Shown: one piece after another, positions 4,812 to 26,413 of the stretch
Layout of the letters: the number at the start of each line of letters is the position of its first letter
Position numbering within the stretch: position 1 is the stretch's first letter
DNA from: an uncultured Phascolarctobacterium sp.
GTDB lineage: Bacteria > Bacillota > Negativicutes > Acidaminococcales > Acidaminococcaceae
Assembly (NCBI RefSeq): GCF_905212365.1
Contig: NZ_CAJMEH010000002.1
Location: 6,683-70,682, forward strand
Direction: 5' to 3'
Length of the DNA stretch: 64,000 nt
Notes under the pieces: model-generated
What the model saw: the letters and a program-made list of their open reading frames with translations, nothing else
Told to the model about the DNA's origin: nothing
Database searches by the model: none
Translations under genes and position numbers: made by a program

Positions 4812-4824
4812 CTTATAATCTCCG

Positions 4825-5992
4825 TCATTTTTCAGGTTGAAAATTTTGTTGTAAGCATAAAATGCCCCACAAGAAGAAATAAATAAGCATATGATATCTT
4901 AAAGTAGCGTTAACATCTACAAGTTCATGCACTAACATACCTATAATAATAGCAGTATAGACATTTTCATACGTCCACAATACGTTCATGTTGCGCAAAA
5001 CATTTTTGCAACATACTTTAAGCTGCCATAATATTAAAGCCAAATATGACACAAAGCCTACAAGGCCGCGCTCTGACAACAAAAATAAATACAAATTATG
5101 GGGATGAGGCAATCCTGGCTCTTTAGCCAACGGACTTATATAGCCAGATATATAATATTCAGACCATCTATGTAACCCCACACCCAATACAGGATAGTCA
5201 AAAAACATCTTAATGGCAGATTCCCATAGTAACAACCTTTCGCTATCATAACTACGCACATTAAACTTATAAAAAATTAATAGTGAAACAATAAATAGAG
5301 CAGCAAAAGACAATATGGCCATCTTATTCAACGCCATCTTGCACTTATTTACTAAAAACTATTACTTCAGCAATTATAGCCAACATAGCGCCCCTGCTAC
5401 CGGAAGATACGACACAAAAAAGTACGCCTAACAACGTAATGGAAAATATTAAGGAAAGTTTTTTATTATCTCTGTATTTATAAACTGCATATGCAAATAC
5501 AGGCACCATAATCTCCATACTAGAACCTAAAGCATTGGGATGTCCAAATAACCCTCCTACCCGTTTACCATACTTAGCTACATGAGTTAATAAGTCATGC
5601 ATGACAAAAATATCGTTAACAAATAATCCTGCGGCCATTCCCAAAAGCGCAAATAAAAAGCTTTTTTTGGGATTGTTGATAAAAAAATAAATTATCAATA
5701 GAGGAATAATTTTTTCAAAATCGCGCACGATGTACTTCATCGCGCCAAAATTATCCTGAAAAACTGCGCACAATGCTAATACTATCATATTTAACAGAAA
5801 TAAGAGCAGCGTTTTATTGAAATAAGAGCTGCGCACATTAGCTAGTCTGTGCTTATCTTTATAAAAAGCGTAAATAGCAAAAGGCAACGCAGCAGCATAA
5901 CAGCCTCCCGTAGATGTGGCTACTCCTGTTCCTATCACAAAAAGTGCTGCGGCTTTATAATAATCAGTATCTATACTCTTCAAATTCATCAT
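4825..5992 (-). pseudogene. waaL: O-antigen ligase (WaaL/Wzy_C family) split into two ORFs (5345..5992 and 4825..5337) by a frameshift
   Basis: The upstream ORF is multi-TM and ends with SGSRGAMLAIIAEVIVFSK, the conserved Wzy_C serine/arginine region. The downstream ORF continues with RLLLWESAIKMFFDYPVLGVGLHRW...HPHNLYLFLLSERGLVGF, the periplasmic loop and H motif. The two ORFs are 8 bp apart and in different frames. Confidence 0.6.
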
Positions 5993-12427: not shown

Positions 12428-12898
12428 TCACAGCTCTTTGAAAGTTTTTATATGCACTATCCATTCGCCTTTACGGTCGGACCCCTGACGTTCCAATAGC
12501 TTTTGCATCTTTAATGAACGTATAGCTCTCGTGACGTGGCTTCGGCTAAGGTTTATATCATTGCACAACTTCAAAATTGTACTTTGAGGATGCCTCTTAA
12601 AATATTGCAAAACTGCTTTTTCTACATCATTCAAGCTATCATTTTCAGTCTCATTTTCACTTTTAGTCTCACTTGATTCTAAAAATGCAGGATGAATAAA
12701 AATGGTAGACGTAAAAGAAAGTCTATCGTCGTCCGTTTCAAAAAGCGGCTTAGGCGATCCGTTAGCTTCCAAAGCGTTTAATATTTTTCTAAAGCCGGTA
12801 TTACGGTACGGCCAAATACCCTTAGCCGCTTGCGCCAGCGCGTCGTTCTTTACACCTTTACTTGACTCTAGTATAATATAAATATAGTTGATTATCAA
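12428..12898 (-). pseudogene. truncated paralog of the upstream regulator, keeping only the C-terminal HATPase_c_4 tail and the HTH
   Basis: The 156-aa ORF ends ...LERQGSDRKGEWIVHIKTFKEL. The last 15 aa and a 47-bp DNA stretch (12457..12503) are identical to the 3' end of 10883..12391 (10889..10935). It lacks the AlbA_2 N-terminus. Confidence 0.5.
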
Positions 12899-12917
12899 GG
12901 AAAAGAGAGTTAATTGA

Positions 12918-12981
12918 GCATAAAAAAAGAATAAAAAGCAGGACGCTATGTTAAAAATATAATCACCATAGCGCCCTGCTT
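12918..12981 (-). terminator. rho-independent terminator downstream of the second EptA-like gene
   Basis: 15-bp stem (aagcaggacgctatg / catagcgccctgctt, one mismatch) followed on the minus strand by a T-rich run. Confidence 0.5.
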
Positions 12982-12993
12982 TTATCTTATTTA

Positions 12994-14779
12994 TTAAATA
13001 TGCGTATGCCCGGCATTGGTTAATAAATCCTCCCGGCGGTATTTAAAATTCGGCGAAGCCAGCGAATTGGTTTCGTCAAATTTATTGGACTGCACGTTAA
13101 AAACGCTGCACAATAATTCATACGCTAAATCGTTGGTCCAATATAAATTTTGGTGTTGGCGCAGCGTTTCCACCACGTTTTTATTTTTAGCGATGTATTC
13201 GTCAGAAAAATAAGTCACTAGCGGAATGCGCACACTGCCCATGCCGTCGAAATTAGGCGAGCGCCGTCCGTCCGGAACCGTGGCGTGGTCGGAAAAATAA
13301 ACCATCGCCTGCAGGTTTAATTTTTCCTGGGCGTAAGCGAAAATTTTGCTCAAAACATAATCCGTATACGCAATGGAATTGGCGTAATTTAATTCTAATT
13401 CATATTTGCCGGGCGTACCGAATTTAGTAAATGCTTCTGGATAACGATTGAGAAAATTAAAGTGGCTGCCTTTAAGATGGATAACGACGAAATTGTTGCT
13501 CTGCGGGTCTACCTCGTCTAAAAAATCCAAGAGCGATTCATCATACTGCACAGTATTTAATTGCTGCTTCGTCCACTTCGCCACGTCGGCGGTATCGGCA
13601 ATTAAAGTTACCGGCGTATCTGCCGAGCCCAAATGGCCCTGATTACTATACCAGTGAATCCTGTACCCCCCCCAGTGCACGCACTACATCTATGATGGAG
13701 CAGGCTTCATAAAATTTTTTATCGTTATACTGATTGATTTCCGTCAACGCATTTGATACGGCCAAAACTGTATTGGCGCCGATGGAATAAGCGTTAGGGA
13801 AAATAATGCAATTCGACATTTCGTTGAGTTTATTCAGCCACGGCGTCGTGTTGTGCGGATACGCCGGGTTGACAGCTTGCATATAATCGCGCGATGCCGA
13901 TTCGCCAATCACCAGCAAAATGGTCGACGGCTTGGCAAACTTTTCCGCTAACGGCTGCACCGTTAAATTTTTAATGCGCTCCCGCATATTAGATTTGTAT
14001 AATTTATTAGTTTCCAAATAGGTTTTGACGTCCAAATAAAATTCCACGATGGCGGTACGAATAAATACGCCGTGCTTTTTCTTCCACAAGTAGCAAGACA
14101 AAAAAGCTACGATAGCCGCTAAAATTGCCACAGAATATAAAGACAACGGCTGCGTTTGCGTCAACGCGCCGTAATTTGCCCAGCTGCACACGCCTATCAT
14201 TAAGACAACGCCTAACACCGAAAAAATATTGTACGCCAAAGGCAGGGATTTAAAATATTCGATGATCTCATTGTAATGCGTTTCTTGCAGCATCTGCATA
14301 CCGTTTTCGTTGATGCAGGCTTTATACAAAGCGAAATAACCTAACTGCGCCAAGGGTATCAATAAGAAAATTATTTCCAGCACAGTTATAACAACAGCTG
14401 CAGGCAGTGCCAACGCAGAAATTTGCCGTGCCAAAATCCCCAAAGACGATATCCAGCTGATAATATACAAACCAAAAACAGCCTCAAAATGAAATTCAAA
14501 ATCCGAAGACACCTTATGATTGCTGATATAATACAGAGTTGGATATGTTAATATCCACAGCCAGCAAATAATAGTGGGAATAACAAATAGTGGTGAAGAC
14601 AGCGGCAGCTGTGTGACAGCCGCAGGCAGCAGCGCCAAAATAGCGCAGGGCACAAAACGGCGCATCTGCAGATAGGTTGCTTTATTTCCAAGGCCATGGG
14701 AAATTGCAAAATAATAACCATATGACAAAATATAAAACGCAATGGCAACATAGATATAAGCATCATACATGATAAGCAT
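12994..14779 (-). pseudogene. second EptA-like phosphoethanolamine transferase, frameshifted at a G8 tract into ORFs 13646..14779 and 12994..13680; putative phase-variable gene, currently OFF
   Basis: The upstream ORF has the membrane domain plus KPSTILLVIGESASRDY. The downstream ORF begins HWGGYRIHWYSNQGHLGSADTP and contains HLKGSHFNFLNRYP. A G8 tract on the coding strand sits exactly at the junction. Removing one G gives ...DVVRALGGYRIHWYSNQG..., which aligns colinearly with the intact paralog (DIAKKAGYKTYWFSNQG). Confidence 0.75.
13666..13673 (-). repeat. homopolymeric G8 tract (C8 on the plus strand) at the frameshift site of the EptA-like gene
   Basis: Plus strand reads ctgtacccccccc agtgcac; counted directly. 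Confidence 0.9.
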
Positions 14780-14880
14780 TAATCCTTTCTAAATTAAGTA
14801 TGAATATTCTTTATAAATTAAATCCATTAATATTGTATTACAGATGCAGTGGATAGTCAATTACGCATATAGCAAAGACC

Positions 14881-14917
14881 CAAAAAATAAGAGCCTTCGG
14901 ATTTCTCCAAAGGCTCT
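14881..14917 (-). terminator. rho-independent terminator immediately downstream of the partial tRNA-Ser copy
   Basis: Stem agagcctt / aaggctct with an 11-nt loop, followed on the minus strand by TTATTTTTTG. Confidence 0.55.
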
Positions 14918-14930
14918 AAAACCGCATGGT

Positions 14931-14989
14931 TGGCGGAGTGGGTGGGATTCGAACCCACGCACGGGGTAAACCGTCTAACGATTTAGCAA
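14931..14989 (-). repeat. 59-bp partial copy of the 3' end of tRNA-Ser(GCU): T-arm, acceptor 3' strand and CCA. Direct repeat of 16607..16665.
   Basis: Identical to the intact tRNA over 59 nt (tggcggagtgggtgggattcgaacccacgcacggggtaaaccgtctaacgatttagcaa), then diverges. Confidence 0.8.
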
Positions 14990-15120
14990 CTCACGCCTGC
15001 CCATTGCATTGCTTCTAGGCACTCTTTTATTTCCATATTTTCAACTGGTTTAGATATATTATAAATTAATTCTATATTTTACACATATTCGTCGAAGATA
15101 AGCCCCCTAAATCACCTATC

Positions 15121-15540
15121 TTAAGAGATACCATCCTCAATAGCTTCTTTTTCATGAAAAGATTTTACCGCCGCAACGAATCCATTGGCTTCATCTACTA
15201 ATTTCAGCACATCTTCTTCAGATAGCTCAAAATAGTCATCGTAATCACTCATTGAGCGACTTGCAAATAGATTAGAAATTGTATCAGACAAATCCTTCCC
15301 AAAAACACCATTCTTAACATAGTGCATTCTGAAATACGATATCACACCAGAATGCTTAGAAAAATCTTTCCCATCAGTAGCTAAAACAGAACGCATAGCA
15401 TGAAACACAGCATAATAAGCCCTATTGACAGCCCCACGACTATCTCCTATGGCAAGCAGTGCATTTGCTGCCTTAAGGCATTGGTGCGCCTGCTCTAATC
15501 TAAGGCTAGCAAGACTCCGCTTCTCCTCATCATGCAGCAT
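15121..15540 (-). CDS. HEPN domain protein, toxin component of a HEPN/MNT pair
   Basis: 139 aa. Overlaps the upstream nucleotidyltransferase by 11 nt. RAYYAVFHAMRSVL is the HEPN helix pattern. Confidence 0.75.
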   Translation of the reverse strand: MLHDEEKRSLASLRLEQAHQCLKAANALLAIGDSRGAVNRAYYAVFHAMRSVLATDGKDFSKHSGVISYFRMHYVKNGVFGKDLSDTISNLFASRSMSDYDDYFELSEEDVLKLVDEANGFVAAVKSFHEKEAIEDGIS

Positions 15541-15871
15541 AAACCACTACACCATCCTTCTCGATATTTTGGTAAAAAGGTAAAATAGGTTTTCTAGCAT
15601 GGAATGCCTTCTTATCCAAAAGAAACATTGACAACAAAATATCGTGTTCCAATCCTACACGGCTGAAGATTTTATTTAATGTCCAAAGTATTTTCCTGTT
15701 CTCTTCTGGCTCCATATTCGTTAACACCAATACATCCACATCAGACTCCTCGGTATTATCGCCGCGAGCATAGGAACCATACAAAACTACTTTGTCGAGC
15801 TTATCACCCAAAAGATCATAAATCTGCTCGGTCAGCTCTTTTAAAACAATATCTAACTCACTACGTTTCAT
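15530..15871 (-). CDS. minimal nucleotidyltransferase (MNT) antitoxin
   Basis: VVLYGSYARGDNTEESDVDVLV is the G[SG]x9-13Dx[DE] nucleotidyltransferase motif. Confidence 0.8.
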   Translation of the reverse strand: MKRSELDIVLKELTEQIYDLLGDKLDKVVLYGSYARGDNTEESDVDVLVLTNMEPEENRKILWTLNKIFSRVGLEHDILLSMFLLDKKAFHARKPILPFYQNIEKDGVVVYAA

Positions 15872-15983
15872 AGCAATTTCCTCCTTGCAGACCTATTTCT
15901 ATAATAATTATACACTTACTTCACATTACCAGCAAGAGAAAAGTCTTTGACAATACGATATTCAAAACTCTTGACTAAATAAC

Positions 15984-16292
15984 TCATAAGCCTAATTCCT
16001 TTTCCAAATTAGCGAAAACTTCAGAAGCAGGCTTTACTCTACCTGCGAGCACATCCTGATATCCCTTTTCCAAAGCTTCATCAAGTTCGGCTTCTGTCAT
16101 TTTACTCATATCCAGCGGATGCCTATATGGTATTTTAACATCAAAAGGAATTCCTCTTTGCAGGATAATTTGCTTATAAAACATATTAATGGCGTTCGAT
16201 ACAGGAGTCCCTAAAGTCGATAAAATTTCTTCAGCTTGTTTTTTCACATCTGGCTCAATTCGAGCATAAAGATTTGCAGTTTTGCTTGCCAT
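15984..16292 (-). CDS. RelB/DinJ family antitoxin, orphan: no cognate toxin ORF is adjacent
   Basis: MASKTANLYARIEPDVKKQAEEILSTLGTPVSNAINMFYKQIILQRGIPFDV is the DinJ ribbon-helix-helix family. The track ORF extends to 16358 through an implausible N-terminus; the likely start is the ATG at 16292. Confidence 0.65.
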   Translation of the reverse strand: MASKTANLYARIEPDVKKQAEEILSTLGTPVSNAINMFYKQIILQRGIPFDVKIPYRHPLDMSKMTEAELDEALEKGYQDVLAGRVKPASEVFANLEKELGL

Positions 16293-16552
16293 ATTATCAA
16301 CTCCTCTACCTGTTAGCTTCTTTTTCTTTATTATACATATTTGTAAGTACAAAAGCAATACTAATGTAGATGCTTTGTGTAAGAAAGCTCAAAACTCTAA
16401 GAGTTAAGAGAGCATCCATACAGAATCGCCAAATTGATATTCCTTGCGTTATTTCTAAGATAATGGATTTTTTATCATAAGCCCCACGTGTATAAAACTT
16501 AATACAAATTACTCTCAGTTATACAGCTAATACTCCATCTTTTCTTTTGCTA

Positions 16553-16594
16553 GGCAAATAAAAACGGCTTCGTAGATTATCTCTACAAAGCCGT
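16553..16594 (-). terminator. rho-independent terminator immediately 3' of tRNA-Ser(GCU)
   Basis: 12-bp stem acggcttcgtag / ctacaaagccgt (one mismatch), followed on the minus strand by TTTTTATTT. Confidence 0.6.
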
Positions 16595-16606
16595 CGTTTA
16601 TTGTGT

Positions 16607-16698
16607 TGGCGGAGTGGGTGGGATTCGAACCCACGCACGGGGTAAACCGTCTAACGATTTAGCAAACCGTCCTCTTCAGCCAGCTTGAGTACCACTCC
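16607..16698 (-). tRNA. tRNA-Ser (anticodon GCU), 92 nt, encoded CCA
   Basis: Hand-folded. Acceptor stem GGAGTGG / CCACTCC, anticodon loop TTGCTAA, long variable arm, T-arm GTGGG-TTCGAAT-CCCAC. Confidence 0.85.
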
Positions 16699-16766
16699 AT
16701 TAGACTACTATATTAGTATAACAGAAGTTTTACTTTTTGGCAAGAGCTTCTGCACAATTTTTTATT

Positions 16767-16856
16767 TGGCGGAAAGGGTGGGATTCGAACCCACGGAAGG
16801 CTTGCGCCCTCGCTAGTTTTCAAGACTAGAGCCTTAAACCGCTCGGCCACCTTTCC
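16767..16856 (-). tRNA. tRNA-Ser (anticodon UGA), 90 nt, encoded CCA
   Basis: Hand-folded. Acceptor stem GGAAAGG / CCTTTCC, D-arm GCC-GAGCGGTTTAA-GGC, anticodon stem-loop CTAGT-CTTGAAA-ACTAG, long variable arm. Confidence 0.8.
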
Positions 16857-16901
16857 ATATAAATGTAATTATACGTTAAAAGCGTCCTTCCGTCAAGCCT
16901 T

Positions 16902-17534
16902 TTACGCTAAAGCTGCGTCCGTGGCCTGCAACGTCCTTGCCTCCAACAGCGCCGCCTGTTCCAGCATAGCCGTCAGCTCCCTGCTCACCGCTTTGTTATA
17001 CTCCGCGTCCTTCGTCAGCTGTAAATTGATGCGCACATTATAATCGGCGCAGCGCAAAGCCGCACGCGCCAGCAAAGCGCTGCACGCACCATCGGTGATT
17101 ACGCCCGGATTGCCAACCGCCACCAGCCTGTCTGCCAGCTGCAGCGCCAGCAAAGCCGTGCGGGCAATGGCTAACGGCACCGCCGCCGCCCGCTTTGCTG
17201 CCATGCGCACAGCCTGCGTCCGCGCTGCCTTTTCCTCCTCCGTCGCTTTCGGCAGCCTGTAACACGCCATAAAGCTTTCAAAGGCCTTAGCGTCGTCCTC
17301 TGCCAGCTGCAAAAGCTCCGAGCGCGCGGCTTCGGCCTGCGACAAAAGCTCCTTAACCTCCGCTTCCTGCGCGGCAAAGCGCTCCTTCCCCACAGTGAGA
17401 TTACCCACCATGGAAGCCAGCGCCGCCGCCAAAGCCCCGGCCATAGCGGCAGGGCCGCCGCCCCCCGGAGTGGGCGCTGCCGAAGCCAAAGCCGTCAAAA
17501 AAATTTTGCTGCTCATTTCGGTCAGATTCTGCAT
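16902..17534 (-). CDS. cyclodeaminase/cyclohydrolase family protein (FTCD C-terminal domain-like)
   Basis: N-terminal APTPGGGGPAAMAGALAAALASMVGNL is the hallmark glycine-rich helix of the formiminotransferase-cyclodeaminase C-terminal domain. Confidence 0.65.
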   Translation of the reverse strand: MQNLTEMSSKIFLTALASAAPTPGGGGPAAMAGALAAALASMVGNLTVGKERFAAQEAEVKELLSQAEAARSELLQLAEDDAKAFESFMACYRLPKATEEEKAARTQAVRMAAKRAAAVPLAIARTALLALQLADRLVAVGNPGVITDGACSALLARAALRCADYNVRINLQLTKDAEYNKAVSRELTAMLEQAALLEARTLQATDAALA

Positions 17535-17606
17535 ATTTTACCTCTTTTCTGTACAAACGGCTATGCAGCGCAAGCCTTCTGCTCACGTCTGCATAGCCGT
17601 AAACTA

Positions 17607-18011
17607 CTAACTCTTATTTTGCGCCAGCCAGCGCCGCACCTGTACCACCGCCGCATAAGCGTCCAGCGGCTCAGGCGGAACCTGCAGGCCTAAGGGCAAA
17701 AGCCTCCGCCAACCCTTAGGCGGATTTTCCTGCCAATACAAGCTGCGCGCTTCCTCCGTACTATGCGCTTCGCCAACTAGCGCTAAAACCGTATTGGGAA
17801 AAACCTTCTGCACCGCTACGCCGATGGCCTTACTATTAGTGCCGTCGCCCATAATAATCTGCGCCGGCTGCTCCTGACCAGCAAAAATGCGCAGTTCGCT
17901 GGCAATGCTATCCGTAACTGCAATGCGCAGCGCCAGAATACTGCCGTCAGCTGCCACCAAAGCCAAGCCTGTTTTGCTGCGTCCTGGGTCGATTCCCAAA
18001 TACTTATTCAT
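17607..18011 (-). CDS. hypothetical protein, possibly an RNase-H-fold (YqgF/RuvC-like) nuclease
   Basis: N-terminal LGIDPGRSKTGLALVAADGSIL resembles the resolvase-like first strand/Asp. Weak. Confidence 0.3.
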   Translation of the reverse strand: MNKYLGIDPGRSKTGLALVAADGSILALRIAVTDSIASELRIFAGQEQPAQIIMGDGTNSKAIGVAVQKVFPNTVLALVGEAHSTEEARSLYWQENPPKGWRRLLPLGLQVPPEPLDAYAAVVQVRRWLAQNKS

Positions 18012-19155
18012 TATCGGGCAGCACCTCCAGCCGCACCCTTACTGGCCCGGCCGTAGTAATATCTCCCTTGGCATAAGCTCTGAGCGTAAATTTACCGTTA
18101 GTACGCCGCATAGCGTTGCTGGTTTCAATCATCGTCGCCGCATCCATGTTGCCAACCTTGCCGGTCAACGGATCCGGCAACACGCCTGCTTCCACAGCAC
18201 GATGATTTACCTGAGTCAGGAAAGCCATAATAATATTTTCGTAGCTCTCCGGAACAGCATCTGCATACTCCTGGCTTAAAATCAAAGAGCCGTCGGGATA
18301 AATAAATTGATTCTCAAAAATTTCAATTTCACAAACGACTAATTCGCCCACAATGATATTCGCTACTGTGCGTATCCGGAAAAACAGATTGCCCTTGCTT
18401 TGGTCCAAAGCGTTGATAGCGTCCGTTACTATATTTTTAGAAATCCAGATAGCCTGCAAAGGCTGTTCCTCCTGCTGCACGCCCAAGCGTTGCAAGGCTA
18501 TCTCATTAGCATTTTGCAGCAACCAATTAACTTGCGCCACATTTTCCTCGTGCTTCAGGCCGCCGCGCATTACCCCGGCGTAAACTATCTCGCCGGCACG
18601 ATAATAAACCTGCCCCTCGCGCATATTGATAATACCCTTGCGCAAAGCGTCGGTAGTCTTTTCCAGATTTTCTATTTCGCCGGTAAGCTGCACTTTAGCG
18701 TCAGTTAAGCTTGCTACCTCCGCCTGAGCCTGACTGTACATCTCATTCATTTGCGCCAGTTTAGCGTCCATTGCGTCGTTTTCTCTGGTGCTTTCCTTAA
18801 TCTTCGCGTCCAGAATACTGATCTGCTGATTTTGTTCATCCACTTTATTTTTCGCCTCAGACAGCGCATCGGCCGCATCGGCCTTTTCTTCGTTCAACAG
18901 CTTTAATTCCTGCTGCAGCTTTTCCATACCGAACAACGCGGTACGCGCGCTTTGCGAAGCGATGGTCATTACGCCGATGGTCAGCACGGCAATCATGGTA
19001 CCGCTGATTACCGTCAGCAAAATAGAAGTATATTTGGGACGCAGGCCAAAAACGGACATTTTCTTTTTGCCGATTTTACTGCCCATTTTATCTGCAATAT
19101 ACGCGATCAACCCGCCGACGATGGCCATAATAATAATCATTCTGATGCCTACCAA
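18004..19155 (-). CDS. membrane-anchored coiled-coil protein, DUF3084-like
   Basis: N-terminal TM helices, a long coiled-coil (LQQELKLLNEEKADAADALSEAKNKVDEQNQ...) and a C-terminal globular domain. Confidence 0.35.
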   Translation of the reverse strand: MVGIRMIIIMAIVGGLIAYIADKMGSKIGKKKMSVFGLRPKYTSILLTVISGTMIAVLTIGVMTIASQSARTALFGMEKLQQELKLLNEEKADAADALSEAKNKVDEQNQQISILDAKIKESTRENDAMDAKLAQMNEMYSQAQAEVASLTDAKVQLTGEIENLEKTTDALRKGIINMREGQVYYRAGEIVYAGVMRGGLKHEENVAQVNWLLQNANEIALQRLGVQQEEQPLQAIWISKNIVTDAINALDQSKGNLFFRIRTVANIIVGELVVCEIEIFENQFIYPDGSLILSQEYADAVPESYENIIMAFLTQVNHRAVEAGVLPDPLTGKVGNMDAATMIETSNAMRRTNGKFTLRAYAKGDITTAGPVRVRLEVLPDNE

Positions 19156-19191
19156 ATAACCGCCTCCCTAAAATTATCGCACAGCTTTCGC

Positions 19192-20283
19192 TTATACGTT
19201 TTTCTTTTTCATCAAGTACAGTCCCGTAAACAGGCACAAAATATTAGGCAGCGCACAGGCCAGCAGCGGCGGCATTGCTCCGCCCTTCCCCAAGCCGGTG
19301 GTAAAGGTCATGATCGCGTAATAAATAAAAATTACGATGATACTGATGCCCAAACCAATGGACGAGCTGGTACGCTGCTTCTGCGTGCCTAAGCACGCGC
19401 CAATCATCGCGAAAAAGAAGCTGGCCAACGGAATATTGATACGCATAAATATTTCGCACCATTGCCTGTTGGTAGGCGTCTGCTGCTTTTCCAGCATGCC
19501 AATATATTCCCGCAGCTCGCGAATAGTCATCTCCTCCGGGTCCTTTTGCTCCCAGGATATCTGCTTGGGAGAAAAGTTCAGCGGAATGATTTGCTCCTTA
19601 AACTTCGCCGTGCTTTGCACGCCTTCCTCGTCGTCTAAAGCGAAAACATTGCCGTTGACAATGCGCCAGGTTCCGTTTTCCCAATAGCCCTCTCTGGCCG
19701 TTTGAATGCGGGATATTCTTCCCTTATTGAATTCTTCGATAGTGATATCGGTCATTTTGCCAAGCTTTTCGTCAAATTTATTGGCGTAGGTAACGCGCTG
19801 CGTATCTCCGCTGATAGTTTTGATGACGATATGGCTTTGGGTAGACGGTCTGCTGTTATGCCTGATTTCTTCATTAAGTATTCTCGAAGCCTCCGCCTTA
19901 GAGGCAGGCACTACCTTTTCCGCCCACACCATAGAAAACATGCTGACGATAAAGCCAACCACCAGCACCGGCGCTACAATGCGGTAATAGCTGACGCCGC
20001 CGGCCTTCATAGCCACAATCTCACTGCTGCCGGACAGCTTGCCAAAAGCCATCAGCGCAGCCAGCAGCATGGACATCGGGAAGGTATAATTGATAATCTC
20101 CGGCAAATTATACATGAATAAACGCCCTACGGTTTCCAGAGAAGCGCCGTAACGAGTCATGTACTGAGTAATTTTAAACAGCATGGTGCTGGCAATAAAA
20201 ATACTGGAGAAAGCGGCGATACCGAAAACGAAGGGATACAGCAGTTCCCTTAATACATAACGGTCTAATAAACGTAAACCCAC
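19192..20283 (-). CDS. lptG: LPS export ABC transporter permease, LptF/LptG family
   Basis: MGLRLLDRYVLRELLYPFVFGIAAFSSIF is the conserved LptF/G N-terminus. 6 TM helices plus a periplasmic beta-jellyroll. Confidence 0.8.
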   Translation of the reverse strand: MGLRLLDRYVLRELLYPFVFGIAAFSSIFIASTMLFKITQYMTRYGASLETVGRLFMYNLPEIINYTFPMSMLLAALMAFGKLSGSSEIVAMKAGGVSYYRIVAPVLVVGFIVSMFSMVWAEKVVPASKAEASRILNEEIRHNSRPSTQSHIVIKTISGDTQRVTYANKFDEKLGKMTDITIEEFNKGRISRIQTAREGYWENGTWRIVNGNVFALDDEEGVQSTAKFKEQIIPLNFSPKQISWEQKDPEEMTIRELREYIGMLEKQQTPTNRQWCEIFMRINIPLASFFFAMIGACLGTQKQRTSSSIGLGISIIVIFIYYAIMTFTTGLGKGGAMPPLLACALPNILCLFTGLYLMKKKNV

Positions 20284-20294
20284 TTTTCTTCCTC

Positions 20295-21014
20295 CTACAT
20301 ACTAAAATTATCGCCAAGGTAATACTTTCTGGCAATAGGATCGTTGGCGATAGTTTTACTGTCGCCGTGCAGCAAAATCTTGCCTTCTGCCAGAATATAG
20401 GCCTTATTGACAATGCTCAGCGTTTCGCGCACATTATGATCCGTAATTAATACGCCAATGCCGCGCTGCGCTAAATGAGCGATCATGCCCTGAATATCGG
20501 CAACCGCGATGGGGTCGATACCGGCGAAAGGCTCGTCCAGCAAAATAAAGGCCGGATCGGTAGCCAAAGCGCGGGCAATTTCCACGCGGCGGCGCTCGCC
20601 GCCTGACAGCGCTTTACCCTCGCTTTTACGCACATGGTTTAAACGAAATTCGTCCAGCAAAGCGTTCATCTTTTCCTCACGCTCGGCCGCAGCCAGGGAT
20701 GTGGTTTCCAAAATCGCCATAATATTGTCTTCTACCGTCATTTTGCTGAAAATAGAAGCTTCCTGAGGCAAATAACCAATACCGTTGCGAGCCCGCTCAT
20801 ACATGGGCATACCGGAAATATCCCTGCCGTCCAGGGTAACTTTACCGGAATCAGGCTTTTCAATACCGACAATCATGTAGAAGGTCGTCGTCTTGCCCGC
20901 GCCGTTAGGCCCTAAAAGCCCCACTACGCTGCCCTGCTCCACGCTTATGCTGACGCCGTCAACTACATGGCGTCCTGAATATATCTTGACAAGATTATCT
21001 GTTTTAATAACCAA
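20295..21014 (-). CDS. lptB: LPS export ABC transporter ATP-binding protein LptB
   Basis: Walker [10 protein letters not shown], signature LSGGERRR, Walker [12 protein letters not shown]. 239 aa, typical of LptB. Confidence 0.9.
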
Positions 21015-21032
21015 GCTTGTGCCCTCCGTTAA

Positions 21033-21797
21033 TTAAGCTGTGGCCTGCTCGCCCTGCTGCTCCTTACCGGGAACAGCAGGCTGCTTTTCCGGAATGTAAT
21101 GAATTTTTACATTGCCGTCGGCAACGGCTACATTGGTATTGGTCAGACGCAGCTTATCTCCGGCTACAGAATTACCGTTCTGCATAGCCTTGGCGTTGCC
21201 AATAAGCTCCACATAACCGCTGTTATCCGTTTTATAAACTGCACTGTCAGAAGAAGCCTTCAGGTCGCGGGCCGGGCTGTCAATATCAACGCCGCCGTAA
21301 GCGTTGGCTACGCCCTGCGCCATATCGTAATCTATTTTAGCCGCATTCATTACGCTACCGTCAACATCGGTCAAGCGCGCCCAGCTGCCAATAGTTTCCG
21401 CAAACTGACGCTCCTTATAATAATCCACTCTATCGGCGCTGAGGCTCTTGCCCGCTTTAGTAATAACTGCGCCGCCTACAGCGGAAAGATCGTTTTCATT
21501 ATGAGCGATAAATTCATTGCAGACAATATGCGCATCCTCACGGTCGGCAATAACGTTGCCTATCAATGTGCCGCTTTTCGTTTTACTGTTAAATTTAGCA
21601 TAATCAGCCGTAGCCTTGCCGCCGTTTTGCAGTAAAACCACATGACCCTTGGCCTCGCCCTCGCCGGTCTGCAAATTATATTCCAGCTCGTCGGCCTGCA
21701 CGCTGAAATTATCCGCAGCAGCCAGGCAGGTAGCGCTCAGCCCCAGCGTCAACAGCGCGGCAGCAGCCGTCAGCAAAATTTTCTTAGTATAATTCAT
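21033..21797 (-). CDS. lptA: periplasmic LPS transport protein, LptA/OstA-N family
   Basis: Signal peptide followed by the repetitive beta-jellyroll pattern (GNV...ADxxxY). Positioned between lptC and lptB. Confidence 0.55.
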   Translation of the reverse strand: MNYTKKILLTAAAALLTLGLSATCLAAADNFSVQADELEYNLQTGEGEAKGHVVLLQNGGKATADYAKFNSKTKSGTLIGNVIADREDAHIVCNEFIAHNENDLSAVGGAVITKAGKSLSADRVDYYKERQFAETIGSWARLTDVDGSVMNAAKIDYDMAQGVANAYGGVDIDSPARDLKASSDSAVYKTDNSGYVELIGNAKAMQNGNSVAGDKLRLTNTNVAVADGNVKIHYIPEKQPAVPGKEQQGEQATA

Positions 21798-21798
21798 C

Positions 21799-22353
21799 TT
21801 ATTCGCCGCCTTTCACAACTTTAGCATTTCCTTTAAGCTTTACACTTTTAAACGCACTGGTAGTTACCGCCTTATCCGCAGTAGCAGTCCAAGCATCCTT
21901 CAGCATTTTTACATGCCCTTCGCCGGTTATCAGCTCCTGCGACTGTCTCCAGACAATTTTATCTGCGTAAAGCTCGCCGCCAGTATTCAGCACGGCCTTA
22001 ACATTTCCCTCCAAAGCAAAATCATTTTTATTGATTTCGGCATAGCCCTTTTCCGCTGCAATGTCCAAATAGCTACCGTCACTGCGGAAAACCTTGCCCT
22101 TGATGCCTTTAAGGTACGCCATATTTTTTTGCTTATCGTTGACTACCTCTTCTACCGTAAACTGCCACAGCTTTTTGCCGTCCTTTTCCCGCTGCAGGAC
22201 GCTGTTTTTCAAAGAAGCGTTCAGCTGCGCGCTAACGCCGTCGCCCACCTTAACGCTCACGGGCTTTTCGCCGCCCAGCATCAGCCAGGCGATTACAGCA
22301 CCGGCGATGAGGATGCCTGCAGCAATGGACAGGACTATCTTTTTATTTTTCAT
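21799..22353 (-). CDS. lptC: LPS export protein LptC
   Basis: 184 aa with a single N-terminal TM helix and a periplasmic domain. Conserved position upstream of lptA. Confidence 0.5.
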   Translation of the reverse strand: MKNKKIVLSIAAGILIAGAVIAWLMLGGEKPVSVKVGDGVSAQLNASLKNSVLQREKDGKKLWQFTVEEVVNDKQKNMAYLKGIKGKVFRSDGSYLDIAAEKGYAEINKNDFALEGNVKAVLNTGGELYADKIVWRQSQELITGEGHVKMLKDAWTATADKAVTTSAFKSVKLKGNAKVVKGGE

Positions 22354-23299
22354 CTGCTTCCTTTTCCTCCTCCGGCGGCGTATACGGCGTATTCCAGCGG
22401 TGCTGGAACCAAATCCAGTTATCGGGGTATTCCTTAATGATTTTTTCGACCTCCTGGGTCATCTTCAAGGTTACGTTATAATCGTCGGCCTTTTGGTCGC
22501 CGGTAAATTTATAGCGAATCGGGTCGCGGACGATAGCCTGATGCCCATAGCCGTCAGGCTTACGAATAATAAAGATAGGAATAATCGGCGCTTTAAACTT
22601 GCGGGCAAAATAAGCGGGGCCCGTAGGCGTAGAAGCCATCTTGCCCAAAAAGGGTACGAAAATTCCGTCGTAGCCGCCGTCCTGGTCGGCAATCAGCCCC
22701 AGCATGCGGCCCTTTTTCATAGCGCGGGCACAGCCCAGTATTTCGCTGGTACCGCGTGAAAAAATTTCCTGCCCCACACCGGTGCGCAGCTCGTTCATAA
22801 AATCGCTGTACACTCTGTTGGGCTGGGGCTTTTCCACCGCGCTCAGCGGAAAGCCGTTCAGCGCCAGGCCTGCTCCCAGCCATTCCCAGTTATCCATATG
22901 GCAGGCCAGCATAACCACGCCGTGCCCCTCATGCACTGCATCCCACAGCACCTCAGGCCGGTCAAATGTTACTAAGCCACGGATATTATCACGATTCAGA
23001 GCCGGCATATATAAAATTTCCATAAAGGTAATGCCCAGCTTGATGAACAATGACTTAATCGTGGTCTGGGACTGCTCCTCGCTGTAGCCCAGACATTCGC
23101 GAATCGTCGCTTCCGCGCGCAGCCGCTGCTTTTTCGCAATCTTATGGTACAAATGGCCCATACCCTTGCCAATTACCACTACCGCTTTATAGGGCAGCCA
23201 GGACACTACCGTACTTATCGTTTTCAGTAAATAATACAACCACATTATTGTCGATCTCCTTGTCCGGCATGCAGATAAGCCGCCACCAAAGATTGCCAT
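22343..23299 (-). CDS. lpxL: lipid A biosynthesis late acyltransferase, LpxL/HtrB family
   Basis: The Lip_A_acyltrans layout (N-terminal TM helix, HxxxxD-type region MLACHMDNWE) matches, and there is clear paralogy to 35047..35937. Confidence 0.7.
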   Translation of the reverse strand: MAIFGGGLSACRTRRSTIMWLYYLLKTISTVVSWLPYKAVVVIGKGMGHLYHKIAKKQRLRAEATIRECLGYSEEQSQTTIKSLFIKLGITFMEILYMPALNRDNIRGLVTFDRPEVLWDAVHEGHGVVMLACHMDNWEWLGAGLALNGFPLSAVEKPQPNRVYSDFMNELRTGVGQEIFSRGTSEILGCARAMKKGRMLGLIADQDGGYDGIFVPFLGKMASTPTGPAYFARKFKAPIIPIFIIRKPDGYGHQAIVRDPIRYKFTGDQKADDYNVTLKMTQEVEKIIKEYPDNWIWFQHRWNTPYTPPEEEKEADEK

Positions 23300-23853
23300 T
23301 TCCCCTGCGCCCGCAGAATCAGCTCTGCCGCTTCACGAACTGCGCCGTTGCCGCCAAAAGCCAATGTAATATAGTCGGCGGCAGCGCAAACCTCGTTAAC
23401 GCCGTCATGGGGAGCAAGGCTCAGCCCTGCCGCTTTAAAAGCCGGCAAATCGTTCAAATCGTCCCCCATATAAGCGACCTGCTCCTGCCGCAGGTTCAAG
23501 AATTGCCGCAGCTGGCTTAAAGCTGCATACTTATCCTTCACGCCCTCGCATAGCAGTGTAATGCCCAGCTCCTCTGCGCGGCGGTGAATAATTTCACTTT
23601 TTCGTCCAGTAACAATAGCTACCTGCAGGCCGCTGCGCAGCGCGCAGCTGATGCCCAGACCATCCTTGGCGTTAAAGCCTTTAAAGACTTCGCCATTAGC
23701 TCCTATATTGATAGTACCGTCGGTCAGTACGCCGTCCACGTCCAGAGCCAGCAGCCGCAGCTTTGCCAGCCGCGGCTTCAATGTCGCCAAATAATCATGC
23801 TCTGCGCCCAGCCCATCCTGATACCAAGCCTGCCGTTGTGCCTGCTCAGCCAT
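23245..23853 (-). CDS. kdsC: 3-deoxy-D-manno-octulosonate 8-phosphate phosphatase KdsC (HAD family)
   Basis: LALDVDGVLTDG...VTGRKS...YMGDDLNDLP are HAD motifs I to IV of KdsC. The ORF 5' extension overlaps lpxL; the true start is probably internal. Confidence 0.85.
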   Translation of the reverse strand: MAEQAQRQAWYQDGLGAEHDYLATLKPRLAKLRLLALDVDGVLTDGTINIGANGEVFKGFNAKDGLGISCALRSGLQVAIVTGRKSEIIHRRAEELGITLLCEGVKDKYAALSQLRQFLNLRQEQVAYMGDDLNDLPAFKAAGLSLAPHDGVNEVCAAADYITLAFGGNGAVREAAELILRAQGKWQSLVAAYLHAGQGDRQ

Positions 23854-24839
23854 TATACCACTCCCTGCCTTACCAGGTCGGTCATATGCAGCAGACCGAT
23901 AACCTTACGCTGCTCGTCGATAACCGGCAGCACCGTAATCGGCTTGGGGCGGTTGCTTTCCATAAGATGCAACGCCTGCGCCGCCAGCTTATCCTGCGTA
24001 ATAGTTTTAGGATTAGCCGTCATCAGCTCCTTAACCGGACGCTGCAAGAAGCCCACGCCCTTGCTGAGCCCGCGGCGGATATCTCCGTCCGTCAGCACGC
24101 CCTGCATAATACCGTTTTCGTCCACCACGGACACAGCGCCCAAGCCCTTGTCCGTAATGACAAAGAGCGCGTCCTGCACCTTCGTATCGGCCAAAACCGT
24201 GGGGTTTTCTTCACCCTTATGCATAATATTGCCTACGGTCAGCAGCAGCTTGCGTCCCAGGCTGCCGCCCGGATGGAAAATAGCAAACTGGCTGGCCGTA
24301 AAATTATGCTTTTGCAGCAGCGCCAAGGCTAAAGCGTCGCCATAGGCCAGCGCCGCCGTCGTGCTGCTGGTAGGCGCCAACCCTAAGGGGCAGGCCTCTT
24401 TAGTAACGCCCACATTTAAAATAACGTCCGCATTGCGTCCCAACGTGGAATTGGCATTGCCCACCATAGCGATGATTTTCGCGCCAATACGGCGCAGGGA
24501 CGGCAGAATATTAAGCACCTCGCCCGTCTCGCCGCTGTTGGACAGAGCGATAACCACATCGTGACAGGTTACCATGCCCAAATCGCCGTGAATGCCTTCG
24601 GCAGGGTGCAGGTAAAAGGACGGCGTGCCGGTGCTGGCCAGCGTAGCCGCCATCTTGCGGCCAATCAAGCCGCTTTTGCCCATACCGGTAATTACCGTGC
24701 GGCCCTGACACTCCAAAATCAGGCTTACTGCCGCTGCAAAGTTTTTATCTATCCGAGGCACTAGCTCCAGCACGGCCTCCGCTTCCATGCGCAGAACCTC
24801 CTGCGCATGCTCCAGCATTGCTTCCATATCTGCCGCCAC
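23853..24839 (-). CDS. kdsD: arabinose-5-phosphate isomerase KdsD/KpsF (SIS plus tandem CBS domains)
   Basis: GRTVITGMGKSGLIGRKMAATLASTGTPSFYLHPAEGIHGDLGMV is the SIS domain of the KdsD family. C-terminal CBS pair. Confidence 0.9.
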   Translation of the reverse strand: MAADMEAMLEHAQEVLRMEAEAVLELVPRIDKNFAAAVSLILECQGRTVITGMGKSGLIGRKMAATLASTGTPSFYLHPAEGIHGDLGMVTCHDVVIALSNSGETGEVLNILPSLRRIGAKIIAMVGNANSTLGRNADVILNVGVTKEACPLGLAPTSSTTAALAYGDALALALLQKHNFTASQFAIFHPGGSLGRKLLLTVGNIMHKGEENPTVLADTKVQDALFVITDKGLGAVSVVDENGIMQGVLTDGDIRRGLSKGVGFLQRPVKELMTANPKTITQDKLAAQALHLMESNRPKPITVLPVIDEQRKVIGLLHMTDLVRQGVV

Positions 24840-24850
24840 CTTTCTACAGC

Positions 24851-25669
24851 TTAACCGCGCACAATTTTATCAATAGCGAGAACGTCGGCCAGCAGCTTTT
24901 CCAAAGCGTCCAAACGCACCATATTGGGTCCGTCGGACAAAGCCTCCGCCGGATTATCGTGTACCTCCAGGAACAGCGCATCGATGCCAACTGCCGCAGC
25001 GGCCCGCGCCATATGGGGCACATACTGGCTCTGACCGCCGCTGGACGTGCCCTGGCCGCCGGGAATTTGTACGCTATGGGTAGCGTCCATTACTACAGGA
25101 TAGCCCAGCTCGCGCATAATTGCCAGACCGCGCATATCCGTCACCAGCGTATTATAGCCGAAGCTGGCGCCGCGTTCCGTCAGCAGCAAATTACGATTGC
25201 CTGCTTCCTCCACCTTTTTTACGACATTCTTCATATCCCAAGGCGCAAGGAACTGCCCCTTTTTTACGTTGATTGTTCTGCCGGTTTTCGCAGCGGCCCA
25301 TACCAAATCGGTCTGACGGCACAGGAAAGCCGGAATTTGCAGAATATCAGCCACCTCGGCGGCCTTTTCTGCCTGCCAGGGCTCGTGGATATCCGTAACC
25401 ACAGGTACGCCCAAATCTGCCTTAATCTGCGCTAAAATTTTCAAGCCTTCGTCAATGCCGGGCCCGCGAAAGGAGGCATAGGAAGAACGGTTGGCTTTAT
25501 CAAATGAAGCCTTAAACACATAGGGAATCCCCAGCTTAGCACAAATAGCCTTCGTGCGCCGGCCAATCGTCAGGCTGCGCTCGTAGCCCTCCAAAACGCA
25601 GGGGCCGGCCATCAGCATCAGAGGATGACCCTGTCCTACCTCATAATTTCCAACTTTAACTATCTGCAT
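24851..25669 (-). CDS. kdsA: 3-deoxy-8-phosphooctulonate synthase KdsA
   Basis: [11 protein letters not shown]...[12 protein letters not shown]...[13 protein letters not shown] are conserved KdsA motifs. Confidence 0.95.
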
Positions 25670-25681
25670 AGTCAGCCTCCT

Positions 25682-26413
25682 TTATTTATTCATTTTAGCA
25701 AACAGCTCGTTGACTGCCGCCAAATCCTCCGGCGTATCTACGCCGATACCTTGAAAATCGCTTTCCAAAACCTTAATTTTATAACCGTTTTCCAACGCGC
25801 GCAGCTGCTCCAGGCTTTCCGCTCTTTCCAGCGGCGTCGGCGTCAAGGCGGCATATTTCAGCAAAAAGCTGCGGCGGTAGGCGTAAACGCCCACATGCTT
25901 AAAGACCTTGAAATCCTCCGGCTTTTTGCGGGGATAGGGCAGCAGGCTGCGAGAAAAATACAGCGCATAGCCGTTTAAATCGGTAACAACCTTAACGGCG
26001 GCCGGATTATCATATTCCTCCTCGCGCATAACAGTTTTCAAGGTTGCCATCTGCAAATTTTCATCAGCAAAAGCTTCCGCTAAACGGTCGATGACCTCCG
26101 GCGGCAGCATGGGCTCGTCACCCTGTACATTAACGATAACGTCGGCGTCAGGATAGCTCAGCACCACCTCGGCCAAACGGTCGGTACCGCTTGGATGGTC
26201 GGGAGAGGTCATCATAACCTTACCGCCGAAGCTTTCCACAGCCTTTTGCACCAGCTCGTTATCCGTAGCCACCACTACCTCGTCCGGCAGCGTGGCCTGA
26301 CAAGCGCGCTCATAAACGCGCTGAATCATCGGCTTACCGGCAATCAAAGACAAGGGCTTGCCCGGCAGCCGGGTCGAAGCGTAACGGGCGGGAATGACAC
26401 ATAACACCTTCAT
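25682..26413 (-). CDS. kdsB: 3-deoxy-manno-octulosonate cytidylyltransferase KdsB
   Basis: VIPARYASTRLPGKPL...VNVQGDEP is the KdsB signature. Confidence 0.95.
   Translation of the reverse strand: MKVLCVIPARYASTRLPGKPLSLIAGKPMIQRVYERACQATLPDEVVVATDNELVQKAVESFGGKVMMTSPDHPSGTDRLAEVVLSYPDADVIVNVQGDEPMLPPEVIDRLAEAFADENLQMATLKTVMREEEYDNPAAVKVVTDLNGYALYFSRSLLPYPRKKPEDFKVFKHVGVYAYRRSFLLKYAALTPTPLERAESLEQLRALENGYKIKVLESDFQGIGVDTPEDLAAVNELFAKMNK

What the first reader, a model, noticed from the sequence alone, without database searches (positions are those of the whole stretch)
14881..16698. 59-bp direct repeat of the tRNA-Ser(GCU) 3' end brackets a 1.6-kb islet of toxin-antitoxin genes: remnant of site-specific integration at the tRNA
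14931..14989 is identical over 59 nt to the 3' part of the intact tRNA-Ser at 16607..16698 (T-arm, acceptor strand and CCA), in the same orientation. Each copy is followed by its own, different, rho-independent terminator hairpin. The 1.6 kb between the copies carries a HEPN/MNT pair and an orphan RelB/DinJ antitoxin but no integrase. This is the architecture of attL/attR duplication after integration of a mobile element into the 3' end of a tRNA gene, followed by decay.
Basis: seen in the sequence. Interest (0 to 1): 0.55.

Follow-up and report, generated by a model that had tools for sequence, protein, structure and literature searches.

The report
Integrase-less toxin-antitoxin islet at tRNA-Ser
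A 1.6-kb piece of foreign DNA carrying toxin-antitoxin genes sits in the 3' half of a serine tRNA gene of a gut Phascolarctobacterium, bracketed by an exact 61-nt duplication of that tRNA; it is an ordinary remnant of a site-specific integration, and strains of the same species without it were found.

Summary

**The repeat.** An exact 61-nt direct repeat (14929-14989 = 16605-16665) covers tRNA-Ser(GCU) from the first base of the anticodon loop to CCA, plus 2 nt. It brackets a 35% G+C islet carrying RelB, MNT and HEPN genes and no recombinase.

**Empty site.** Three public contigs of the same species (flanks 97-98% identical) have the intact tRNA followed directly by the 14890-14917 terminator and the next gene. 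The insertion is exactly 1676 bp.

**Decay.**
- A relative (L110) has the same element-borne terminator followed by a tyrosine-integrase remnant.
- Another relative (L097) keeps a resolvase and a complete RelB-ParE pair.
- The window keeps only the first three or four codons of ParE.

**Spread.**
- The MNT-HEPN module and right arm are 95-97% identical in another Phascolarctobacterium species, at the same tRNA. That species' flanks are only 74.5% identical.
- The ~116-nt right arm is conserved next to three different cargoes.
- At least five element types use this site.

**Classification.** The islet fits the definition of a cis-mobilizable element (CIME). Present-day mobility is not shown, and one circularly permuted contig is not reliable evidence for it.

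**Verdict.** This is a new member of a known kind, of modest interest.

The parts
16607..16698 (-). Intact tRNA-Ser(GCU). Its 3' 59 nt (16607-16665) lie inside the repeat, so this is the attL side.
   Evidence: ARAGORN; Rfam tRNA 52.1 bits.
16605..16665 (-). Direct repeat copy 1 (61 nt): anticodon loop to CCA plus 2 nt.
16563..16595 (-). Terminator B, which is element-borne. It follows the intact tRNA in every occupied site, in the window's species and in a second species.
   Evidence: 92-93% identical in L120-L127 and 90% in L110. Absent from the empty sites.
16293..16562 (-). Non-coding left part of the islet. It includes a segment (16389-16466) shared with the islet of the other species, and the region upstream of RelB.
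15984..16292 (-). RelB/DinJ-family antitoxin (102 aa), orphan in this window.
   Evidence: Pfam RelB; DinJ structures 4q2u and 4ml0; homologues named RelB/DinJ.
15975..15987 (-). Remnant of the cognate ParE-type toxin gene. Only the first three or four codons (ATGAGTTAT...) remain, overlapping the RelB stop codon.
   Evidence: Comparison with L097 3400-3732, a ParE_toxin gene starting MSYF.
15906..15972 (-). Conserved ~65-nt segment with a perfect TATAAT upstream of the MNT ribosome-binding site. It is shared with islets that carry other cargo and is a probable promoter (inferred).
   Evidence: It occurs twice in L042.
15530..15871 (-). MNT (minimal nucleotidyltransferase), the predicted antitoxin.
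   Evidence: Pfam NTP_transf_2/Polbeta; PDB 9xbd chain E. The identical protein is in 1736 blocks of the assembly collection. All 5-6 nt differences from the other species are synonymous.
15121..15540 (-). HEPN protein of the AF0298-like HEPN-T type, the predicted toxin. It overlaps MNT by 11 nt.
   Evidence: Pfam HEPN; PDB 2hsb and 9xbd.
14990..15105 (-). Conserved right arm of the element (~116 nt next to the core). It is a probable site for arm-type integrase or excisionase binding (inferred).
   Evidence: Conserved next to three different cargoes in L042, L097, L105 and L119-L127.
14929..14989 (-). Direct repeat copy 2: the displaced chromosomal 3' part of the tRNA (attR side).
   Evidence: ARAGORN does not call it a tRNA.
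14890..14917 (-). Terminator A, the native terminator of the tRNA gene.
   Evidence: It directly follows the intact tRNA in the empty sites L132, L137 and L138 and in the sister species L001.

Best explanation
The 1615-bp islet is the decayed remnant of an integrative element that inserted by tyrosine-integrase site-specific recombination into tRNA-Ser(GCU) of a Phascolarctobacterium.

How it arose:
- The element's attP carried the tRNA sequence from the anticodon loop to the 3' end. This is the 'anticodon-centred' class of tRNA att sites.
- After integration, the element-borne copy and its own terminator B complete the working tRNA (attL).
- The original chromosomal 3' part, with the native terminator A, was displaced 1676 bp downstream (attR).
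- Deletions then removed the integrase, a resolvase and the ParE toxin.

What is left: the two att copies, the conserved arms, an orphan RelB antitoxin and an intact MNT-HEPN toxin-antitoxin pair.

Current state: the element cannot move on its own. It matches the definition of a cis-mobilizable element (CIME), that is, attL and attR retained with the integration and transfer genes lost.

Shown here: the duplication, the empty site, the element-borne terminator, the integrase remnant in a relative, and horizontal sharing between species.

Inferred: the crossover lies in the anticodon loop, the arms serve as protein-binding sites, and the toxin-antitoxin pair stabilises the islet or defends against phage.
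For: - Repeat: exact 61-nt direct repeat in the same orientation, starting at the first base of the anticodon loop.
- Composition: islet G+C is about 35%, against 47-60% in the core genes to the right.
- Same-species empty sites: L132, L137 and L138 have precise boundaries and flanks 97-98% identical. Occupied and empty strains form two groups, so a single gain or loss is enough.
- Terminator B travels with the islet into a second species. That species' own terminator then follows the partial copy.
- L110 has the tRNA, then terminator B, then a tyrosine-integrase C-terminal remnant (Phage_integrase, E = 7e-17; 60% identical to the L001 integrase, which sits in the same place and orientation).
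- L097 has a resolvase, then RelB, then ParE, then the same right arm and the partial tRNA.
- The MNT-HEPN module with the right arm is 95-97% identical between species whose 9-kb flank is 74.5% identical.
- The site is a hot spot. At least five different sequences lie upstream of partial copies that share one downstream flank.
- Definitions: CIME in PMC5704250; anticodon-centred attP class in PMC4383910.
Against: - No full-length parent was recovered with an integrase plus both ends of this islet. The parent is reconstructed from two partial relatives.
- No conjugation or phage genes are tied to the islet family, so the type of parent (ICE, IME, phage or satellite) is unknown.
- The empty-site contigs are Logan assemblies with k = 31, shorter than the 61-nt repeat. 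An assembly path that skips the islet cannot be ruled out absolutely. Against this, it would need the islet branch to be missing in three samples representing two strains.
- The crossover position inside the 61 nt is not determined.
Confidence: 0.85

Rival explanations
1. The islet is not a dead remnant. It is a still-mobile, integrase-less mini-element that is excised, transferred and integrated by the integrase of a related element using the same tRNA-Ser att site. This could happen in trans, or in cis after tandem accretion.
For: - attL and attR are 61/61 identical.
- The ~116-nt right arm and the terminator-B left end are conserved next to different cargoes.
- The cargo is near-identical in a species with 74.5% flank identity.
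- Tandem arrangements with other elements at the same site occur in L105 and L120-L124.
- Integrase-bearing elements use the same tRNA in L001, L031, L035, L100 and L106.
- Contig L010 has the attP-type junction: HEPN side, then core, then terminator B.
Against: - No integrase lies in the 64-kb window.
- L010 comes from a k = 31 assembly. A cycle through a 61-nt repeat exists in the graph whether or not a circle exists, so L010 is not evidence.
- Within the species, one gain or loss explains the pattern.
- The islet is no less diverged than its flanks between the two occupied strains.
- Transfer between species could have happened while the parent still had its integrase.
Confidence: 0.25
2. 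The islet spreads, and is lost, by RecA-dependent homologous recombination rather than by an integrase. The tRNA sequences on both sides are identical in all Phascolarctobacterium, and they serve as the homology for double crossover after DNA uptake and for deletion between the 61-nt repeats.
For: - The tRNA and core are 100% identical across species, and about 226 nt around the tRNA is 93% identical.
- The islet boundaries coincide with the ends of these conserved stretches.
- Internal modules look shuffled. The RelB module is flanked by a 10-nt repeat, AGAGTTTTGA, and is absent from the other species' islet.
Against: - 61 nt is short for efficient homologous recombination.
- The identity block starts exactly at the anticodon loop, which is the signature of integrase att sites.
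- Integrases and an integrase remnant sit at this very site.
- The original insertion still needs a non-homologous step.
Confidence: 0.1
3. The 61-nt copy is an old local partial duplication of the tRNA gene, or a generic repeat, and is unrelated to mobile DNA.
For: Partial tRNA copies with almost nothing between them do exist at this locus in another species. In L076, a degenerate copy (about 82% identical) with its terminator lies 119 nt downstream of the first.
Against: - Precise presence or absence of the 1676 bp within one species.
- Low-G+C foreign cargo.
- The same cargo in another species.
- Only two copies in the window.
- The L076 structure is better read as a fully decayed islet.
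Confidence: 0.02

Closest known systems
CIME (cis-mobilizable element), as defined for ICESt1/ICESt3-related islands of Streptococcus thermophilus (Pavlovic et al. 2004 and Bellanger et al. 2011, as cited in PMC5704250)
   Same: - It is flanked by retained attL and attR.
[quoted passage not shown]
- It lies at the 3' part of a conserved gene used as an att site.
- It is found in tandem with other elements at the same site.
   Different: - The parent is unknown and no conjugation genes are seen, so descent from an ICE or IME is not shown.
- Mobilisation has not been demonstrated.
- The target is a tRNA anticodon-loop site in a Negativicute.
- At 1.6 kb it is very small, and its cargo is only toxin-antitoxin genes.
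tRNA-integrated genomic islands with an anticodon-centred att site (class A of Williams 2002; Islander database, PMC4383910)
   Same: - There is an intact tRNA plus a 3' fragment in the same orientation.
- The identity block runs from the anticodon loop to the 3' end.
- The element supplies the new 3' half.
- Related elements place the integrase gene next to the intact tRNA.
   Different: It has no integrase, so it would fail Islander's integrase filter. Most listed islands are much larger.
HEPN-MNT (HepT/MntA) type VII toxin-antitoxin systems (Shewanella SO_3166/SO_3165, PMC7641770; Legionella, PMC11586414)
   Same: It is a two-gene MNT-HEPN operon with overlapping genes. MNT has the GS-x-ARG and DVD nucleotidyltransferase motifs.
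   Different: - The HEPN is Pfam PF05168, AF0298-like (HEPN-T), not the HepT/DUF86 type.
- The canonical Rx4-6H motif is RSMSDY here, with no H.
- PMC3710099 describes this variant as having an alternative conserved His. That His is present here (KHSG, aligned to the His of AF0298).
- Activity is untested.
RelB/DinJ-ParE type II toxin-antitoxin modules
   Same: The RelB-family antitoxin has relatives that sit directly upstream of a ParE toxin (L097, L129, L130).
   Different: In the window the toxin gene is reduced to its first few codons, so RelB is an orphan.

Membership tests
tRNA-integrated genomic island (Islander criteria) | Intact tRNA gene plus a cognate 3' fragment in the same orientation, bracketing the island | tested here: met
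tRNA-integrated genomic island (Islander criteria) | Integrase gene inside the island | tested here: not met
   No integrase in the islet or the window. A remnant is present in relative L110.
tRNA-integrated genomic island (Islander criteria) | Uninterrupted (empty) site in related genomes | tested here: met
   L132, L137 and L138, same species, precise 1676-bp difference.
Anticodon-centred (class A) tRNA att site | Identity block between attL and attR begins in the anticodon loop and extends to the 3' end of the tRNA | tested here: met
   The repeat starts at tRNA position 34, with the anticodon at 36-38. The crossover point itself was not determined.
CIME (cis-mobilizable element) | Retains attL and attR | tested here: met
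   61/61 identical cores. Conserved arms across relatives.
CIME (cis-mobilizable element) | [quoted passage not shown] | tested here: met
CIME (cis-mobilizable element) | Derived by decay from an ICE or IME | tested here: inconclusive
   An integrase remnant and a resolvase are found in relatives. No relaxase or conjugation genes are linked to the family, so the parent type is unknown.
CIME (cis-mobilizable element) | Can be mobilised after accretion with an incoming element | not testable with these tools
   Tandem arrays exist (L105, L120-L124). Excision or transfer needs reads or experiments. L010 is not reliable.
HepT/MntA type VII toxin-antitoxin | Adjacent MNT and HEPN genes in one operon | tested here: met
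   MNT 15530-15871 and HEPN 15121-15540 overlap by 11 nt.
HepT/MntA type VII toxin-antitoxin | Rx4-6H RNase motif in the HEPN toxin | tested here: not met
   The aligned motif is RSMSDY (AF0298 has REESDY). PMC3710099 describes this HEPN-T variant as having an alternative His.
HepT/MntA type VII toxin-antitoxin | MNT AMPylates HEPN and so neutralises its toxicity | not testable with these tools
   This is a biochemical property (PMC7641770).
RelB/DinJ-ParE type II toxin-antitoxin | Antitoxin gene followed by its cognate toxin gene | tested here: not met
   Only ATGAGTTAT... of the toxin remains in the window. The complete pair is present in L097, L129 and L130.

The most novel reading that the evidence does not exclude
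The islet may belong to a family of miniature (~1.6 kb) integrase-less cassettes. Each has the same att core, a conserved left end (terminator B) and a conserved ~116-nt right arm, but exchangeable toxin-antitoxin or defence cargo: MNT-HEPN, RelB-ParE, a DUF4160 pair, or Fic. On this reading the cassettes are still moved between Phascolarctobacterium species by borrowing the integrases of larger elements that target tRNA-Ser(GCU). The tRNA would then act as a docking site for a swappable array of defence cassettes.
Probability: 0.25. Interest if true: 0.5.

Novelty: new member of a known kind. Interest (0 to 1): 0.3.

Why it matters
The case itself is a textbook one, now fully documented: intact tRNA, displaced fragment, element-borne terminator, empty site and integrase remnant in a relative.

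It also shows that tRNA-Ser(GCU) is a busy integration hot spot in a common human-gut genus that is little studied genetically. All stages of decay are visible there, from integrase-bearing islands through a 1.6-kb toxin-antitoxin islet to a 119-bp scar.

The MNT protein of this islet is very widespread in gut metagenomes, occurring in 1736 blocks of the assembly collection.

If the mini-islets prove to be mobilised by resident integrases, they would be a compact natural vehicle for inserting cargo at a defined site in Phascolarctobacterium.

For annotation, such islets are missed by tools that require an integrase, and they break short-read assemblies at the 61-nt repeat.

Tried and rejected
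- Exact-protein look-up of the window's FTCD_C protein found nothing on record.
- My first RelB look-up used a start one codon too far upstream and found nothing. The corrected look-up found only the window's own strain.
- The genome-contig scan with FTCD_C returned no genome of the window's species, only a sister species at 88%.
- The metagenome scan for an 'intact tRNA + terminator A' pattern gave 0 hits. The second scan, with the 59-nt core, gave 99 stretches, none from the window's species. The empty site finally came from a look-up of the LptB protein.
- Contig L010 is circularly permuted (1681 bp, a 1676-bp unit). I first read it as an excised circle and then rejected it as evidence: Logan assemblies use k = 31, shorter than the 61-nt repeat, so the cycle exists in the graph regardless. 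Why it ends with a 5-nt overlap at 'AGAGT' is unexplained.
- Contigs L133 and L134 stop inside the tRNA at position 47. That break is not at a core boundary and most likely reflects tRNA variants from other organisms in the sample. It says nothing about the islet.
- No plasmid or phage record carries the islet. Only RelB-like genes and tRNA-Ser genes match weakly. No viral contig has the islet's right arm next to the core.
- I tested whether the islet is less diverged than its flanks between the two occupied strains. It is not an outlier: 99.4% against 94-99.75% per 800-nt window.
- The context of the closest long-contig RelB homologue (P0005) is a RelB-ParE-resolvase module elsewhere in the genome, not a parent element at the tRNA.
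- What I first called the 'native flank' of the commonest species turned out to be shared at 99% with a third species. It also contains an older degenerate att copy, so it is not a clean chromosomal flank.
Full report
**1. The observation**

ARAGORN finds two tRNA genes on the minus strand: tRNA-Ser(GCU) at 16607-16698 and tRNA-Ser(UGA) at 16767-16856. Rfam agrees.

A 61-nt exact direct repeat links 14929-14989 to 16605-16665. There are two copies in the window and none in 100 shuffles. No further fragment of this tRNA occurs anywhere in the 64 kb.

The repeat begins at tRNA position 34. ARAGORN places the anticodon at position 36, so position 34 is the first base of the 7-nt anticodon loop. 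The repeat then runs through the variable arm, T-arm, acceptor strand and CCA, plus two more bases.

Each copy is followed by its own hairpin-plus-T-run. Terminator B lies at 16595..16563 and terminator A at 14917..14890.

The 1615 bp between the copies is about 35% G+C, against 47-60% in the core genes to the right. All three genes in it are on the minus strand:
- RelB, 15984-16292.
- MNT, 15530-15871.
- HEPN, 15121-15540.

**2. Organism and neighbourhood**

The flanking genes (Lpt, LpxK, KdsA-like, DUF3084, FTCD_C) match Phascolarctobacterium assemblies. The nearest species representative, L001, is 89% identical over 10 kb.

To the left of the islet lies a sulfatase-family gene. It is intact (591 aa) in other strains but split in two in the window.

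**3. Empty site in the same species**

A look-up of the window's LptB protein returned three contigs, L132, L137 and L138 (Logan assemblies). In each, FTCD_C, the two tRNAs and the sulfatase gene are contiguous.

At sequence level, window 26700..16605 and window 14989..12447 both align at 97.4-98.4% to these contigs, and both abut one single 61-nt copy (L132 10675-10735). The intact tRNA is followed directly by terminator A. The difference is exactly 1676 bp, which is the islet plus one repeat.

L132 and L138 are the same strain and L137 is another. The two occupied strains (the window and L006) are closer to each other than to the empty ones. One gain or one loss therefore explains the pattern.

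One caveat applies. These are k = 31 assemblies. A contig that runs through the tRNA without a break implies that the islet branch was absent from the graph, which is good evidence but not read-level proof.

**4. Which side is foreign**

Terminator B travels with the islet. In a different Phascolarctobacterium species (L120-L124, L127), the 9-kb flank is only 74.5% identical to the window. There, the same tRNA is followed in turn by:
- terminator B (92-93% identical);
- about 390 bp of unrelated sequence;
- a 78-nt segment shared with the window islet;
- MNT-HEPN and the right arm at 95-97% identity;
- a 59-nt partial tRNA;
- that species' own terminator.

So the copy attached to the working tRNA, together with terminator B, is element-borne. 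The displaced copy with terminator A is the original chromosome. Terminator A also follows the intact tRNA in the sister species L001.

**5. Evidence of decay**

- In L110, the tRNA and a 90%-identical terminator B are followed by a 73-aa C-terminal fragment of a tyrosine integrase (Pfam Phage_integrase, E = 7e-17). It is 60% identical to the full integrase that occupies the same position and orientation in L001. The fragment is fused to the N-terminal part of a resolvase.
- In L097, a complete resolvase, RelB (92% nucleotide identity to the window's RelB region) and a ParE-family toxin precede the same right arm and a partial tRNA.
- In the window, only ATGAGTTAT... of the toxin gene survives, overlapping the RelB stop codon. 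The sequence then switches to a conserved ~65-nt segment that precedes MNT.
- The window has no integrase or resolvase at all.
- In the commonest species, many 'empty' sites still carry a degenerate (about 82% identical) second copy of core plus terminator 119 nt downstream. This is the end point of the same decay.

**6. The site is a hot spot**

Scanning public collections for the 59-nt core gave 6 viral and 99 metagenomic stretches.

Partial copies are preceded by at least five unrelated sequences. They can share one and the same downstream flank with intact tRNAs.

Integrases of two families lie next to the tRNA:
- 60% identical to the L001 integrase in L031.
- 37% identical in L035, L100 and L106.

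The right arm of the window islet (about 116 nt next to the core) is conserved next to three different cargoes:
- MNT-HEPN.
- RelB-ParE, in L097.
- A DUF4160 pair, in L042.

**7. The genes**

- MNT has the GS-x-ARG and DVD motifs, read directly from the sequence. It matches the nucleotidyltransferase chain of PDB 9xbd.
- HEPN matches AF0298 (PDB 2hsb) and the HEPN chain of 9xbd. At the canonical Rx4-6H position it has RSMSDY. PMC3710099 describes exactly this HEPN-T variant as lacking the H but having a second conserved His upstream. That His is present here (KHSG), aligned to the His of AF0298.
- Between species, all 5-6 nucleotide differences in MNT are synonymous, while most in HEPN change the protein. 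The numbers are small.
- In characterised HepT/MntA systems, MNT neutralises HEPN by AMPylation (PMC7641770). Whether this pair works the same way is inferred, not shown.

**8. Is it still mobile?**

The points in favour:
- The att cores are identical.
- The arms are conserved.
- The cargo is shared between species.
- Tandem arrays exist (L105, L120-L124).

These all fit the CIME concept (PMC5704250).

The only direct hint of excision is contig L010, a circular permutation of the 1676-bp unit. I do not accept it as evidence, because a k = 31 graph contains that cycle whenever a 61-nt repeat brackets a segment.

Within the species, nothing requires more than one event. No plasmid or phage record carries the islet.

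**9. Verdict**

It is a new, well-documented example of a known kind: a decayed, integrase-less, att-flanked island at a tRNA.

The modest extra interest lies in its spread across gut Phascolarctobacterium species, and in the possibility that it belongs to a family of mini-islets mobilised by other elements.

Noticed in passing
window 12994-14779 (-): The sulfatase-family membrane protein is split into two overlapping ORFs (377 and 228 aa, overlapping at 13646-13680). It is one intact 591-aa gene in L006, L132, L137 and L138. This is a frameshift in this strain, and the same split is seen in contig L013 from ERR321601.
   Followed up: partly
window 12428-12898 (-) and 10883-12391 (-): A 156-aa ORF looks like a truncated paralogue (end of HATPase_c_4 plus a winged HTH) of the neighbouring 502-aa SLFN_AlbA_2/HATPase_c_4/HTH protein. 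The last ~80 nt of the two genes are 84-86% alike.
   Followed up: partly
window about 10323 and leftwards: Synteny with strain L006 (98%) ends near 10323. The glycosyltransferase cluster to the left differs between strains, so it is probably a variable LPS or O-antigen region.
   Followed up: no
window 16389-16398 and 15962-15971: A 10-nt direct repeat (AGAGTTTTGA on the minus strand) flanks the RelB module. The islet of the other species (L120) has a single copy and no RelB. The module may have been gained or lost by recombination at this short repeat.
   Followed up: partly
L120 9447-9833 (also L119 9500-9760): In place of RelB, the other species' islet has a 31-codon, very hydrophobic ORF (VLTVDTFVGILSFGVACFGLGFALGSLHSKK). 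A GC-rich stem region precedes it and a terminator follows. It resembles a type I toxin locus. No Rfam family reaches threshold.
   Followed up: partly
L010 (Logan SRR13594480, 1681 bp): This contig is a circular permutation of the 1676-bp unit, with a 5-nt overlap (AGAGT) at its ends and an attP-type junction. It could be an excised circle, a tandem array or an assembly cycle, and these cannot be told apart without reads. The position of the break is unexplained.
   Followed up: partly
L076 (reverse strand) about 4662-4900, and many similar loci: In the commonest Phascolarctobacterium species, the tRNA and its terminator are followed after about 20 nt by a degenerate (about 82% identical) second copy of the tRNA 3' part with another copy of the terminator. 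This is a 119-bp scar with no cargo. The flank beyond it is 99% identical in a species whose core genes are about 72% identical.
   Followed up: partly
L001 10975-11010; L019, L031, L105 and others; L035, L064, L100, L115: Integrase-bearing elements at this tRNA have short tandem repeats right after the terminator: GGTGGACAA-N4-GGTGGACAA in one family and GGTGCAATGATGGTGCAAT in another. These are probably arm-type integrase binding sites.
   Followed up: no
window 15530-15871 versus L119-L127: All 5-6 nucleotide differences in MNT between species are synonymous. In HEPN, 3-5 of 4-9 changed codons alter the protein. The antitoxin appears more constrained than the toxin.
   Followed up: partly
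L126 and L119: The identical MNT gene also occurs away from the tRNA. In L126 it sits in an array of small toxin-antitoxin and HTH cassettes with PDDEXK_2 genes. In L119 it lies next to chromosomal-looking genes, with a partial tRNA but no intact tRNA within 10 kb.
   Followed up: no
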